Part shown: positions 24,282-43,272 of the stretch, piece by piece
Layout: each line of letters opens with the position of its first letter
How positions within the stretch are numbered: position 1 is the stretch's first letter
NCBI GenBank assembly: GCA_964016885.1
Contig: OZ024740.1
Location: forward strand, 88,660,001-88,724,000
From: Eledone cirrhosa
Lineage: Eukaryota
Direction: 5' to 3'
Length of the DNA: 64,000 bases
Notes under the pieces: generated by a model
Seen by the model: only the letters and a program-made list of their open reading frames with translations
The model's database searches: none
What the model was told of the DNA's origin: nothing
Translations under genes and position numbers: made by a program

Positions 24282-25145
24282 TGTATGTATGTATACGTAC
24301 ATACATATATGTATACAGACGTACAGTAGTATGTATATACATATACAAACATGCACACATATATATATGCACGTATCGGTTTACCGAACATTTATTATAA
24401 TGATCGGTTTGTTTGTTTGTAAACAAACAAACAGCCCGAATTACGCCGTACAGTGTTTAGGCATCCACGTCACCTTTTTGTTCAACACTGACACAGGAAT
24501 GATGTACTAGTTTCAAACTTATTAGCTATCGTCAGCATCGTATACCTTCCTGCCAGATATTTGAACGTCTGAAAGTATATACTTTCCTTATGCATATTAA
24601 CGGTTGAGCAGCCTAATTTGCATATCGAGTGAGTTTAGTCGGCCGGGGGCACCGAAAACAATAAATGGAATAGAATGAAACGAAATTTTATTTCTCACTC
24701 TTAGTACGGCAGTTACTTAAATGTAAGTATGTATGTATGTATACGTACATACATATATGTATACAGACGTACAGTAGTATGTATATATACACATACATGC
24801 ACAGATATATATATGCACGTATCGGTTTACCGAACATTTATTATAATGCTGACGATAGCTAATAAGCTTGAAAAAAGTACATCGTTCCTGTGTCAGTTTG
24901 TGACGTGGTTTCCTAAACACTGTACGGCATAATTCGGGCTGTTTGTTTACAAACAAACCGAGCATTATAATAAATGTTCGGTAAACCGATACGTGCATAT
25001 ATATATATGTGCATGTATGTATATATATACATACTAGTGTACGTCTGTATACATATATGTATGTACGTATACATACATACTTACATTTAAGTAACTGCCG
25101 TACTAAGAGTGAGAAATTTAATTTCGTTTCATTCTATTCCATTTA
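24282..25145. mobile_element. ORF-less repeat of about 440 bp with hammerhead: partial tandem plus inverted copy (retrozyme or PLE pLTR-like)
   Basis: The unit repeats at about 24287 and 24735 and is inverted from about 24846. HHRs lie at 24499-24541 (-) and 24846-24885 (+). Confidence 0.85.
24499..24541 (-). ncRNA. Type I minimal hammerhead ribozyme
   Basis: acgatg-CTGACGA-tagc taataa gttt-GAAA-ctag-TA-catcat. Palindromic stem III (actagt), GUA triplet. Confidence 0.8.
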
Positions 25146-26179
25146 TATATATATATATATATATATATATATATATATGTTTGTGCGCTTGACTGTCTAA
25201 GTTTTTGTGTGTCTCTGTCGGTGAATGTCCTTACATAACTATATATATGTTTTTCTACTTAGTAACAAGTTCCTATTATTAGTTTTATAAAACATATTCT
25301 CCCTTCCCAAAGAAACATATACATCGTTCGTGTCCCTTCATTCATTGTACAACATAAGGCAAAAGTGAACCGGACTGCCAATGCATTTCTATTGCAAGGT
25401 TCATAGAAAATCTTTGAACGTCCACTTATTTGTGTGTTATCAGCCGTGATTATATATGTTTTACTCCCTTGTTTGGTGTATTTATAATTTCGTAAAGTAT
25501 CATCTGAAATTTAGTAAATACTATTTGGAGTATGAATGTTTGTACTGACTCACTCTTTTCATTCACCAGAATTCGCAGATAAATATTTTGACTATCATTG
25601 TAATTCTCTAGTGATATTTGGTTCTAAAGTTTGTTCCTTTCCAATAAAACCTTTTGGTATAATTATCAATTGCGCCTGGAACACAGTTATATTATAATCA
25701 TTATCTTTCTTTTGCCCTGTTCACTCATTTTAATACTTCGGTGCTTTCATTTATAGTAGATGTATAATTTATTACCTGTTTGTTGAATACGTAAGATGAT
25801 TTACATCTGTTAATAAGCGAGTGAATCGTGAGCTCTTATTTCCAGAGCAGCACTTAGTTCTCTACATTTTTGCATTATATTAGCCAATTAGACTGAAAAG
25901 TTTTCAGACAGGTTGTGCGTTGCTCTCCTTTATAATACCACATCACTGACTAATACCAATTATAAGCATGGCTGCAAAATACACCTTTGGAGTAGTGTGA
26001 ATGAGATGCTTCAAGAATGTCAACAATGTAAGAAGAGAAAATGAACTGAAGTGACTGACTGATGTTTGAAACCACACCAGAATCTGGGTTTTCATCCTTG
26101 ACTTAACTAGTGCTATACACCATTTTTTGGTTATTGGACTGCAGAAAGCAGGATGGTAATATACATTGATATGTATTTA

Positions 26180-26860
26180 GATAGATAAATAGATAGATAG
26201 ATAAATAGATAGATAGATAGATAAATTGATAGATAGATAGATATATTTCTTTATTAGCCACAGGGGCACAAAAGAAGGGGACAAATACAAAGGGGGAAGT
26301 TTACATACAATAAAAACGTGTAAAATGTTATCACAGATGGAATTTAAAAGTTAGTCGATTTTCCCCAATAGAGGGAGACAGTTTATATGGGTAACACATA
26401 CCCCCGAAAAAAAATGTGCAACCCTCATCTCCAGGAGTACGAAGAGCTTGTACTCATTTCCTCTCCTCCTCCTTTTCCTCAACCTACAGGCTGATATAGA
26501 GAGAAGGCCCATTCACTCGGGCCATTCTCGCCACTTTCACCCACCTTTCATAAAACTTGCTGGGGTACAGCACCTCTCTCTCCATCCTGATTCTTCTTCC
26601 AAAGTGGTATTTGAAAAAAAGAATCAGTTGTTGGCCGGAGAGAAAGGTGTCTGACCTCAGCCCTTTCAACCTTGTCCACCATACAACATCTTTCGCCATA
26701 GCTATCACACAGAGGAAAACCGCCTCTCCTTCGTTTTTGAAGGAGGGTGGCGGTTTTATCATGACAATGGACTCGGTGGTCAACTGGATTGGTCCCACCC
26801 GCGACAATAGTCGTTCTACATAGCCCCACAGGTCAGTGACGCCCGGGCAGTGTATGAATT
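26180..26860 (-). mobile_element. Tx1/L1-clade LINE 3' fragment with (TATC)n tail
   Basis: Encodes the ORF2 C-terminus shared with 27225-27713. AATAAA is followed by (TATC)n. Confidence 0.85.
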
Positions 26861-28920
26861 GATAGATAGATAGATAGATAGATAGATAGATAGATAGATC
26901 AATTTTCTATTTATTTGCCACCAGGGTATCAAAGATTGGGACAAATACAAGGGGGGGGGGGGGTTACATACATTTCAAAGACGTGAAAAACATATAAGAA
27001 ATCAAATTCAACAATCGAAGTCCTCAATAGGGAGGGGGCGTTGACGTGGGTCGCACACACCCCCTAAAAAAATGTGCAACCCTCCTCCTCATGAGCACAA
27101 AGAGCGAGTGCTCCCTTCCTCTCCTCCTTCTTCTCCTCTCTCACCTACAGGCTGATATAGAGAGAAGGCCCATTCTCTCCACTTTCACCCACCTTTTATA
27201 AAACTTGCTGGGGTAGAGCACCTCTCACTCCATTCTGATCCTTCTTCTAAAATGGTACTTGAAAAAAAGGACCAGTTGTTGGCCGGACTCAAAGGTGTCT
27301 GACCTCAGACCTTTCAACCTCGTCCACCATACAACTTCTTTCGCCATAGCTATCACACAGAGGAAAACCGCCTCTCCTTCGTTTTTGAAGGGGGGAGGCG
27401 GTTTGATCGTGACAATGTACTCGGTGGTCAACCGGATTGGTCCCACCCGCGACAGTAGTCGTTCCACATAGCCCCACAGGTTAGCAACGCCCGAGCAGTG
27501 TACGAATGCGTGCGCGAGGGTTTCCTCCTCACGCACGCATCTCGGACAGATCTTCTTCGAGGGGCCCCTACCCGGGCGCCCGTGTCTGTAGAGCTTGTCC
27601 CGAACGGGTAGAGCTCCTCGGTAGCACTGCCAAGCCAGGGACTTTTGGAAGTTGTCCATCGGTCCCGGGCCAAACGTCCTAGCGAACGGACTGGCTAGCT
27701 CGTCTTCCTCCATGCCCAGAGCCTCTCCGAGAGCGTCGTCGCACTTGCTGCGCCCAACCCTCTATAGAATCTTGAGGTTGAGTCTCCACTGATTGCCGGA
27801 TACGCTTGCCAAAGGGCCGTGCGCGCCTGGGCACATTCAATGTGCCAGTCGCCCACTTTTCTCGGTCTTTGCTTGACCTCGGATTGTAGCTCGGTGAGTG
27901 AGACGAGTCTCGGAAAGGCTCGCCTCACAAAAGGGGCCCACACCGGCTGACCGGTGAGGAATACCTGGAGGTGCCGTAGCCTTAATGCGTGTCTACGCAT
28001 CGTCAGCCACGGCATCTCCAGCCCTCCGTTCGAAGGGTGTTGACAGCAGATGGATCTTCTCACCAAAGGAGCCCGCTTCTTCCAAAGGAATCGGAAGAGC
28101 GCGCGCTCCATTTTGGCGAGCCTTTTCGCTGAGCAAGGCACGACCGTCAAGCGGAAGTAGATGACGGACGCTATATGAGTGTTCGCTACTTCCGCTCGAC
28201 CTTTCAGGGATAGCTTGCACTCGGCCCACTTCTGGGCGAGTGCAAACACCCTTCCCGTTACCTCGTCTCAGATTTTCTCCACCTGGAGGTCCGGTCCGAA
28301 CCAGACCCCGAGCAGCTTCACCGGTCTCTCCGTCCAGCGTCCGACGACGCCGTCGGAGGGCATCGGTTTGCCTCTCCACGTTCCGAGTTGCAAACCGACG
28401 GACTTGTCCCGATTCAGCTTGCCGCCGCGAGCACCACATCCAGGTACCGATGGTCGGCACTATCGAACGCCTTAGATTGATCCAAGTTGATCAGGGCCCC
28501 ACCAAAGCCGCGTTTGTTCCCTACCCTCTCTACGGTGTATCGCATGAGGTGGAGGTTGTCGTGCATGGATCTGGACGAGATTGCGCATGTCTGCGCTTCT
28601 CCCACCAGGTTCCCGTGGACAAGCGCCAACCTCTTCGCTAACACCTTGGCCAACATCTTTAACTCTGTGTTTAGCAGAGTTATGGGCTTGAAGTTATCTA
28701 TGTCATGCCCCTTGTTCTCGTCCTTTCTCACCAGCGTGGCTACGCCCTTGGTCACAGAACTGGGAATTCTCCCGTTCTGTTGCCAGTTGCAGTAGACCGC
28801 CTCGAGGAGATCGGAGAACAAGTCCGGCATCGCTACATAAATTCGTATGGTAGACCATCGAGACCGGGATATTTGCGTTTGCCGCATTGGCTCAGCGCTT
28901 CCCCTATTTCAGCGGCTGGT
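26861..28920 (-). mobile_element. Tx1/L1-clade LINE, 5'-truncated, with RT core internally deleted
   Basis: NFKPITLLNTELKMLAK, INLDQSKAFD, LSLKGR, HPSNGG, zf-RVT-like GALPVRDKL..CPRC..ETLAHAFVHC. (TATC)n tail. Confidence 0.9.
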
Positions 28921-42257: not shown

Positions 42258-42520
42258 TCAATACATTCTTTTCTTTGATTTTTCTCTTGGGCTGTGTAAT
42301 TTGTAGAATGGGAATATTATAAATATTCCCTGACCACATGTTGCCAGGTGGCCGCTTAGGGGTATCTGACGGACATTTGGGTCTCTGATTTGTTGATGGT
42401 GTACCCGTGCACGTTCCGATAGTGCATTTCCAGTTTGACCGACATATAGTTCTTCACAATTCGGGCATTTAATGCAGTAAATTAGATTTCTGCTTTTGCA
42501 GTTCATATTTGCATTTGGGA
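42258..42520 (-). pseudogene. GIY-YIG endonuclease fragment of a different PLE lineage (Neptune/Poseidon-like)
   Basis: [34 protein letters not shown]. Confidence 0.8.
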
Positions 42521-42676
42521 ATATATATATATATATATATATATATATATATATATATATATATATATATATATATATATATATATATATATATATATAT
42601 ATATATATGTATGTATATATATGTATATATATATATGTATATATATATATATATATATATATATATATATATATAT

Positions 42677-43272
42677 GGAATAGAATGAAGCGAAATTTCA
42701 TTTCTCACTCTTAGTACGGCACTTACTTAAATGTAAGTATGTACACGTACATACATATATGTATACAGACGTACAGTAGTATGTATATATATATACATAC
42801 ATGCACACATATATATATGCACGTATCGGTTTACCGAACATTTATTATAATGATGCTCGGTTTGTTTGTAAACAAACAAACAGCCCGAATTACGCCGTAC
42901 AGTGTTTAGGCATCCACGTCATCTTTTTGTTCAACACTGACACAGGAACGATGTACTAGTTTCAAGCTTATTAGCTATCGTCGGCATCCTATACCTTCCT
43001 GCCAGATGGCTGAACGTCTGAAAGTATATACTTTCCTTATGCATATTAACGGCTCGGCAGCCTAATTTGCATATCGAGTCAGTTCAGTCGGCCGGGCGCA
43101 CCGAAAACGATAAATGGAATAGAATGAAGCGAAATTTCATTTCTCACTCTTCGTACGACACTTACTTAAATGTAAGTATGTATGTATACGTACATACATA
43201 TATGTATACAGACGTACAGACGTACAGTAGTATGTATATATATATATACATGCACACATATATATATGCACG
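42677..43272 (-). mobile_element. 440 bp HHR repeat family, 1.3-unit tandem
   Basis: ggaatagaatgaagcgaaatt at 42677 and 43116. HHR at 42948-42990 (-) with a CCGACGA core. Confidence 0.88.

What the first reader, a model, noticed from the sequence alone, without database searches (positions are those of the whole stretch)
24282..43272. ORF-less HHR repeat of about 440 bp at three loci: candidate retrozyme / circular RNA family
Seen: copies at 24282-25145, 39588-40075 and 42677-43272, as 1.3-unit tandems or fold-backs. Each has acgatg-CUGACGA-tagc..gctt-GAAA-ctag-UA-catcgt (consensus), and individual copies carry different point lesions. No coding capacity. Known: animal non-LTR retrozymes are short tandem HHR repeats that produce circRNAs and are thought to be mobilised by PLE RT. 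Inference: an undescribed family copied from a circular template.
Basis: partly seen in the sequence, partly recalled or inferred. Interest (0 to 1): 0.75.

Follow-up and report, generated by a model that had tools for sequence, protein, structure and literature searches.

The report
Penelope-pasted hammerhead retrozyme, three remnants
These are three mostly damaged copies of a 440-base, protein-free repeat that carries a predicted self-cutting RNA motif and occurs over 23,000 times in this animal genome; its copies end at two fixed points beside TA repeats, so it is likely pasted in by Penelope-type jumping-gene enzymes, probably from an RNA circle.

Summary
The 439-bp unit and its type I hammerhead are present at all three loci, and two of the four hammerhead cores are broken. 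The genome holds 23,182 exact cores in at least five subfamilies, the youngest about 0.5% diverged. Copies are not randomly permuted: 138 of 171 arms end at two sites about 58 nt apart, mostly on (TA)n. All 42 head-to-head pairs with defined ends use one site each. This is the Penelope-like (PLE) 'tail' footprint. No copy follows a PLE ORF as its terminal repeat (0 of 100 loci), and the Neptune fragment beside copy 3 is a separate insertion. Copies run through the ribozyme cut site without a scar, so the template was a circle (about 60%) or an uncut multimer (about 30%). Cleavage, circles and the partner PLE are untested. Verdict: a new member of the animal non-LTR retrozymes, with direct genomic evidence for the proposed PLE route. 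The scan found this before on other DNA of this genome (e1-8665316, e1-8664322, probably the same family).

The parts
24278..24851 (-). Copy 1, arm 1: 1.29 units, monomer 99 to 226, 3' end at start site 1 followed by (TA)n
   Evidence: (WIN_c1)
24499..24541 (-). Type I hammerhead with intact core (the only one of the four with intact core, loop III and both helix I strands); predicted cut between 24505 and 24504
24846..25146 (+). Copy 1, arm 2 (inverted): 0.72 units, monomer 406 to 283, 3' end at start site 2 followed by (TA)n; hammerhead 24846-24885 with truncated helix I and changed loop III
39588..39796 (+). Copy 2, inverted duplicate (monomer 17 to 226), 0 differences in 81 scored positions from the minus arm; abuts a truncated LINE ORF2
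39761..40020 (-). Copy 2, arm ending at site 1 (monomer 393 to 226); hammerhead 39968-40010 with GAAA changed to GGAA
40020..40084 (+). Copy 2, inverted arm made of the tail only (monomer 225 to about 283), followed by (TA)n
42671..43275 (-). Copy 3: 1.36 units, monomer 128 to 283, 3' end at site 2 followed by about 150 bp of (TA)n
42948..42990 (-). Copy 3 hammerhead with core lesion (CCGACGA) and a helix I change; predicted cut between 42954 and 42953
42671..42733 (-). Tail between the two inferred reverse-transcription start sites (monomer 221-226 and 277-283, both reading CATTTA)
43065..43072 (-). Octamer-like ATGCAAAT motif, present in 6 of 6 monomers tested; promoter role untested, label recalled
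41625..42521 (-). Separate 5'-truncated Neptune-type PLE: GIY-YIG end at 42258-42521, its own pLTR, and a hammerhead at 41813-41791; shares the (TA)n tract with copy 3

Best explanation
This is a non-coding, non-autonomous retroelement of the animal non-LTR retrozyme kind whose RNA is likely cut by its predicted type I hammerhead, probably closed into a circle of 420-500 nt, and likely copied into (TA)n sites by the enzyme of a resident Penelope-like element. Shown in DNA: the unit, hammerhead motif, copy number, two fixed 3' ends, microsatellite flanks, inverted pairs, passage through the cut site, and structure-keeping changes. Inferred steps follow. (1) Tandem loci are transcribed. (2) Two hammerheads pair through the palindromic CUAG loop and cleave, since helix III has only one base pair. 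(3) The monomer's ends, held together by a 22-pair extension of helix I, are ligated. (4) A GIY-YIG nuclease nicks both strands of a TA tract. (5) The reverse transcriptase primes one end at site 1 and the other at site 2 and reads upstream for 0.2 to several rounds, giving single arms or head-to-head pairs. The partner is likely a Neptune- or Hydra-type PLE; which family is not identified. My odds are about 0.9 for PLE-type mobilisation of a non-autonomous repeat and about 0.6 with the circle included.
For: Ends: 138 of 171 arms stop at monomer 214-234 (63) or 268-291 (75), and 126 of those 138 are followed by a microsatellite. Of 65 head-to-head rows, 42 have both ends defined, and all 42 are one of each (a few loci give two rows). 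This matches the tail present at one end only, the inverted 5'-truncated arms and the (TA)n bias of PLEs (PMC8557442), and the two internal start sites shown in vitro for a PLE (PMC11167929). Resident Neptune-A and Hydra-like families show two end clusters on (TA)n as well. The genome has 10,597 GIY-YIG candidates, some in long RT-plus-GIY-YIG frames. Arrays of 2-11 units carry the same ends. No run-off at the cut: 98 of the first 100 of 14,992 post-cut 25-mers continue into the hammerhead with no indel scar. Units are closest to units of their own array in 41 of 60 cases, tied in 16, and closer to another array in 3. RNA-level constraint: 97.7% of cells paired over 73 pairs and 8 pairs with double changes, including helix I and two long-range helices. 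None of 11 core positions is among the 47 of 214 columns that differ between five subfamily consensuses. Variants shared within a locus are strand-biased, A>G 27 against T>C 9 (P=0.004), while singletons are not, 41 against 50.
Against: No RNA, cleavage or circle was observed. Rfam does not call the motif, and the lone hammerhead misfolds in the energy model. In the PLE studied in vitro, uncut RNA was the main substrate and cleavage was dispensable (PMC11167929). Arrays L141 and L158 show partly alternating unit types, which a single monomer circle does not give. Core conservation alone is not significant (about P 0.07-0.1), and the shuffle control ignores relatedness. The A>G bias could come from wobble tolerance rather than editing, since C>T also exceeds G>A (16 against 6) among fixed variants. 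About 6 of 171 arms have 5' ends within 5 nt of the cut, against about 4 expected. No sampled pLTR is homologous to the unit. Loci were not drawn at random: they were picked by motif and come largely from the start of contig C1.
Confidence: 0.6

Rival explanations
1. Same element and same PLE machinery, but the template is an uncut linear read-through transcript of tandem loci. The hammerhead then trims or regulates RNA, and array length is regenerated by local DNA duplication.
For: Uncut RNA was the dominant substrate for a PLE in vitro (PMC11167929). A one-pair helix III predicts weak cleavage (PMC7229834). Alternating unit types in L141 and L158 and variants shared by only some units of an array fit mixed multimers or later duplication. 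The absence of a scar at the cut site fits equally.
Against: Internal priming with 5' truncation can only shorten daughters, yet arrays of up to 11 units with intact ends occur in old and young subfamilies. Units of old arrays diverge star-like. Private variants are fixed across whole arrays including the inverted arm (L141 7 of 7, L142 3 of 3). Cores and helix I are kept across subfamilies.
Confidence: 0.3
2. The repeat is the solo pseudo-LTR of an autonomous PLE family that was not sampled, and the copies are its 5'-truncated insertions.
For: Ends and hammerhead build resemble those of the resident Neptune-D pLTR (U-U at the base of helix II, palindromic tetraloop). Vertebrate retrozymes are homologous to pLTRs (bioRxiv 10.64898/2026.07.22.740005). 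Only about 50 of 150 listed GIY-YIG hits and 30 Hydra-like hits were examined.
Against: Arms run from the hammerhead back into their own tail instead of into a 3' UTR. 0 of 100 loci have a same-strand PLE ORF within 400 bp upstream. No shared junction among 54 lone 5' flanks. None of the first 100 tails or cores continues into a shared foreign sequence.
Confidence: 0.07
3. A satellite or fold-back repeat spread by DNA-level events, with some palindromes being assembly artefacts.
For: TA-rich, self-complementary centre; copy 2's inverted duplicate has 0 differences in 81 positions; some local duplication in arrays.
Against: Dispersed over many contigs; fixed, heterotypic ends in 42 of 42 pairs; the arms of copy 1 differ by 4-7%; compensatory changes.
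Confidence: 0.03

Closest known systems
Metazoan non-LTR retrozymes (coral, mussel, axolotl; Cervera and de la Pena 2020, PMC7229834; passages read)
   Same: Short low-GC tandem unit, canonical-size type I hammerhead and no ORF. The one-pair helix III with palindromic tetraloop is as in axolotl HHR_Amex1, and the U-U pair at the base of helix II is as in HHR_Amex2. PLEs are present in the same genome.
   Different: The unit is at or above the upper size range (422-540 nt). Most copies are dispersed arms of about 0.7-1.6 units or head-to-head pairs with two fixed 3' ends on (TA)n, which the passages read do not describe. Circles and cleavage are shown there but not here.
Vertebrate non-LTR retrozymes as PLE derivatives (Li, Clavereau and Pollet 2026, bioRxiv 10.64898/2026.07.22.740005; parts 1-3 of 5 read)
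   Same: Non-autonomous hammerhead repeats tied to PLEs; monomers, dimers and multimers.
   Different: Their link rests on co-occurrence and pLTR homology. Here it rests on insertion ends, and no homologous pLTR was found.
EN+ Penelope-like elements, Neptune and Hydra clades (Craig et al. 2021, PMC8557442, passages and section 11; Frangieh et al. 2024, PMC11167929, parts 1-2 of 4; Cervera and de la Pena 2014, PMC4209133, passages)
   Same: Partial tandems, inverted 5'-truncated arm, tail at one end only, two internal start sites downstream of a hammerhead, (TA)n targets.
   Different: No ORF. The tail is about 58 nt against 30-40 nt quoted. The hammerhead has canonical helix sizes and a long helix I extension rather than the minimal PLE form.
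Newt satellite 2 (partly recalled)
   Same: Tandem unit with a weak helix III hammerhead that works as a dimer (PMC7229834, PMC4209133); an octamer-containing snRNA-type promoter is recalled for it, and an octamer motif is present here.
   Different: No sequence comparison was made; the promoter parallel was not found in the papers listed.

Membership tests
Metazoan non-LTR retrozyme | Type I hammerhead with helix I about 6 bp, helix II about 4 bp, short helix III with palindromic loop | tested here: met
   Motif and helices; definition from PMC4209133; Rfam models do not hit
Metazoan non-LTR retrozyme | Short tandem unit of a few hundred bp, dimers to multimers | tested here: met
   422-540 nt units, arrays of 2-11
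Metazoan non-LTR retrozyme | GC below 50% and no coding capacity | tested here: met
   GC 0.36-0.38; longest sense ATG ORF 37-49 codons
Metazoan non-LTR retrozyme | Highly self-paired RNA | tested here: met
   Circular fold z about -7, inflated by the TA centre; without it z = -1.3, -4.6, -2.5; 8 pairs with double changes
Metazoan non-LTR retrozyme | Self-cleavage of the RNA | not testable with these tools
   Needs in vitro transcription of monomer and dimer
Metazoan non-LTR retrozyme | Expression as monomeric circular RNA | not testable with these tools
Metazoan non-LTR retrozyme | Loop 1-loop 2 tertiary contact | not tested
   A bulge in helix I and a 4-nt loop II are present; the contact was not modelled
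Metazoan non-LTR retrozyme | Target-site duplications longer than 4 bp when present | tested here: inconclusive
   Hidden in microsatellites; one 9-bp duplication-like pair in L084 read by eye
EN+ Penelope-like element (autonomous) | ORF with RT and GIY-YIG between pLTRs | tested here: not met
EN+ Penelope-like element (works like) | Two fixed 3' ends (tail), at one end of an insertion only | tested here: met
   138 of 171 arms; 42 of 42 pairs heterotypic
EN+ Penelope-like element (works like) | 5' truncation, inverted 5' arm, (TA)n target bias | tested here: met
Derivative of a resident pLTR | Sequence homology to the pLTR of a coding PLE | tested here: inconclusive
   None among nine sampled families; sampling incomplete

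The most novel reading that the evidence does not exclude
A still-active ribozyme RNA circle is written into an animal genome by twin-primed, rolling-circle reverse transcription. A borrowed Neptune- or Hydra-type enzyme starts at two structure-defined sites of the same circle from the two ends of a cut TA tract, without sequence homology to its own terminal repeat. A-to-I edits of the template are fixed into the DNA and drive subfamily evolution.
Probability: 0.35. Interest if true: 0.75.

Novelty: new member of a known kind. Interest (0 to 1): 0.52.

Why it matters
Which enzyme spreads animal retrozymes, and whether a circle is the template, is proposed but not shown in the papers read (PMC7229834 discussion passage; bioRxiv 10.64898/2026.07.22.740005). 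This family leaves the PLE tail footprint at thousands of sites, has a very young subfamily, and names two exact start sites. With the published in vitro PLE assay (PMC11167929), that makes the question directly testable. It also shows that such a parasite can be a major repeat of a 3-Gb genome. The three window copies are ordinary decayed members.

Tried and rejected
Rfam scans found no hammerhead; the miRNA hits are TA-repeat noise. A DNA search with monomer 1-127 returned nothing because common words are skipped, so patterns were used instead. No RNA holder was listed, which says nothing on expression. Contigs of four runs of unrecorded kind from coded organisms A, B and C lie on the unit, with no core change listed in B or C at low depth; this shows presence only. 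The within-locus versus between-locus identity test was uninformative for the window's own subfamily because it is star-like. The within-subfamily core mutation rate was dropped because copies were anchored on the core. An apparent cluster of 5' ends at monomer 402-413 was dropped as a selection effect. The search for the partner PLE found no homologous pLTR. A 13-of-14-nt match between site 2 and a Neptune-B end is pyrimidine-rich and at the other site, so it is a weak lead only. The head-to-head contact with a Hydra-like ORF in L084 is a nested insertion, not a partner link. Copy 3 as the pLTR of the neighbouring Neptune-D piece was rejected: a TA tract separates them, the ORF starts mid-domain, and it has its own pLTR and hammerhead.
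Full report
Observation. The three loci are real copies of one unit, 439 bp in copy 3. With monomer position 1 set at the base after the predicted cut (window 42953, minus strand), copy 1 is a head-to-head pair (99 to 226 and 406 to 283). Copy 2 is such a pair (393 to 226 and 225 to about 283) plus an inverted duplicate. Copy 3 is one arm of 1.36 units (128 to 283). The hammerhead has helix I of 6 bp, the CUGANGA core, a U-U pair plus 4 bp in helix II, GAAA, a one-pair helix III closed by the palindrome CUAG, and UA before the cut. 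Two of the four window cores are broken, and no locus has two hammerheads in tandem. Rfam did not call the motif. Sense-strand ATG ORFs are at most 49 codons in 6 of 6 monomers.

Family. The window lies in a 3.0-Gb genome; earlier notes of the scan call it a cephalopod, which I did not test. Exact pattern counts are 1,723 for the window's 41-nt hammerhead variant, 14,992 for the 25 bases after the cut, 5,402 for a tail motif and 23,182 for the 33-nt core, each with 0 for the reversed control. Of 141 hammerhead-centred segments, 122 fall into five subfamilies (53, 37, 23, 5 and 4 copies; median divergence from own consensus 0.5-2.3%) and 19 stay single. Copies 1 and 3 resemble the 1% subfamily; copy 2 shares variants with another.

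Ends. Over the loci held then (L001-030, L081-160 less two, and two window pieces; arms at locus edges dropped), 138 of 171 arms end at monomer 214-234 or 268-291, and 126 of these run into (TA)n or (TC)n. The 33 others include breaks of my chaining at indels. Of 65 head-to-head rows, 42 have both ends at a defined site, and all 42 pair site 1 with site 2; a few loci give two rows. Both sites read CATTTA, and (TC)n-flanked ends stop a few bases earlier at TC, which suggests priming by short target-RNA pairing (inference). The 5' ends are scattered. Arrays of 2-11 units have the same ends. The samples were chosen by motif and come largely from the start of contig C1. This is the PLE footprint: partial tandems, an inverted 5'-truncated arm, a tail at one end only and (TA)n bias (PMC8557442, passages and section 11), with the tail lying between two internal start sites in vitro (PMC11167929, parts 1-2 of 4).

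Not a PLE terminus. The genome is rich in PLEs: 10,597 GIY-YIG candidates and 59,978 candidates for a Hydra-like domain. I examined about 50 of the 150 listed GIY-YIG places and 30 Hydra-like places, giving six Neptune-type, one Poseidon-like and two Hydra-like families; the clade labels come from motifs described in PMC8557442 or are recalled. None has a pLTR homologous to the unit. Neptune-A and one Hydra-like family show two end clusters on (TA)n, and the Neptune-D hammerhead has the same U-U and palindromic-loop build. In 100 non-overlapping loci, none has a same-strand PLE ORF within 400 bp upstream of the repeat; 11 nearby hits lie downstream or on the other strand. Among 54 lone 5' flanks from 49 loci, about a dozen of them not true ends, no junction is shared. 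Of the first 100 tails, read by eye, about 46 continue in the unit, about 52 end in a microsatellite and 2 are one-off. Copy 3 does sit 150 bp of (TA)n upstream of a Neptune-D GIY-YIG fragment, but that element starts mid-domain and has its own pLTR, so the two share a target.

Template. 98 of the first 100 post-cut matches continue into the hammerhead without an indel; two stop 3 and about 10 bases upstream. About 6 of 171 arms start within 5 nt of the cut, against about 4 expected. So cut linear monomers run off at their end were not the usual template. In 19 arrays, a unit's nearest neighbour was in its own array in 41 of 60 cases, tied in 16, elsewhere in 3. Private variants are fixed across L141 (7 of 7, with the inverted arm) and L142 (3 of 3). 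Against a single monomer circle, L141 and L158 show partly alternating unit types, which could be a dimer circle, a mixed linear multimer or later duplication. Uncut RNA was also the main substrate in PMC11167929. I put the circle at about 0.6 and the uncut multimer at about 0.3.

RNA-level constraint. In 16 natural monomers from five subfamilies, a 73-pair structure is 97.7% paired with 8 double-change pairs, against 1-3 when partners are slid. The structure was taken from folds of these same sequences and related copies count repeatedly, so the shuffle values are not probabilities. Helix I extends over 22 pairs and would hold a cut monomer's ends together. None of the 11 core positions is among 47 of 214 columns that differ between subfamilies, which alone is not significant. 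Following a lead from earlier notes on editing, variants shared within a locus were counted: A>G 27 against T>C 9 (P=0.004), with singletons at 41 against 50. Among fully fixed variants C>T also exceeds G>A (16 against 6), so wobble tolerance may explain part. Among partly shared variants only A>G is biased (8 against 0), which favours editing. Either reading points to selection or change on the ribozyme-strand RNA.

Comparison and verdict. The element meets every sequence-level feature of metazoan non-LTR retrozymes that I tested with a clear result (PMC7229834, passages; PMC4209133, passages); target-site duplications were inconclusive and the loop contact was not tested. Cleavage and circles are untested. 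The preprint 10.64898/2026.07.22.740005 (parts 1-3 of 5) links retrozymes to PLEs by co-occurrence and pLTR homology, not by insertion ends. Six searches (listings only apart from the five papers named) showed no description of this family or of such ends in a retrozyme. Supplements, Repbase and Dfam were not seen and may hold one. The scan has noted the same pattern before; those notes are not independent support. Verdict: a new member of a known kind, with strong genomic evidence for PLE-type insertion and an open question on the circle. Interest 0.52.

Noticed in passing
window 41625-42521 (-): 5'-truncated Neptune-type PLE (93% amino-acid identity to L069) with its own hammerhead at 41813, between two (TA)n tracts
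   Followed up: yes
window 14618-16554, 32338-33089, 50592-51791, 63767-64000: Fragments of Hydra-like PLE ORFs (CxCx5C motif); the family of 50592-51791 is young and abundant
   Followed up: partly
L061, L066, L078, L079 pLTRs: Neptune families A, B, C and F carry hammerhead-like motifs with altered cores ending GAAACCGG or a close variant (family A reads UUGAAAA, a possible U3-A8 pair), read by eye
   Followed up: no
window 38470-39587 (+): LINE ORF2 piece with an AP-endonuclease hit, cut off exactly where copy 2 begins; Tx1/L1-like label recalled
   Followed up: partly
window 40603-41577: Another fold-back element (93% identical arms) with 71-bp internal repeats and a TA centre
   Followed up: no
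window 4826, 11544, 30368, 54895 (+) and 57113 (-): Further hammerhead-like motifs of other repeat families; the one at 11544 recurs in L040, L063 and L075
   Followed up: no
L084 9-2472: A 2-unit copy inserted in a Hydra-like ORF with a 9-bp duplication-like pair; the junction is repeated in an inverted arm, as if the chimera was copied again
   Followed up: partly
L141 2405-6027 and L158 1588-4885: Units alternate in part (X Y X Y Z W): dimer circle, mixed multimer or later duplication
   Followed up: partly
L195 1903-5517: The same two-armed insertion appears twice, 2.6 kb apart: a local duplication or assembly repeat
   Followed up: no
window 5117-5283, 6872-9305, 18447-19306, 59278-59597: Several further inverted repeats or palindromes, possibly PLE-type fold-backs
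   Followed up: no
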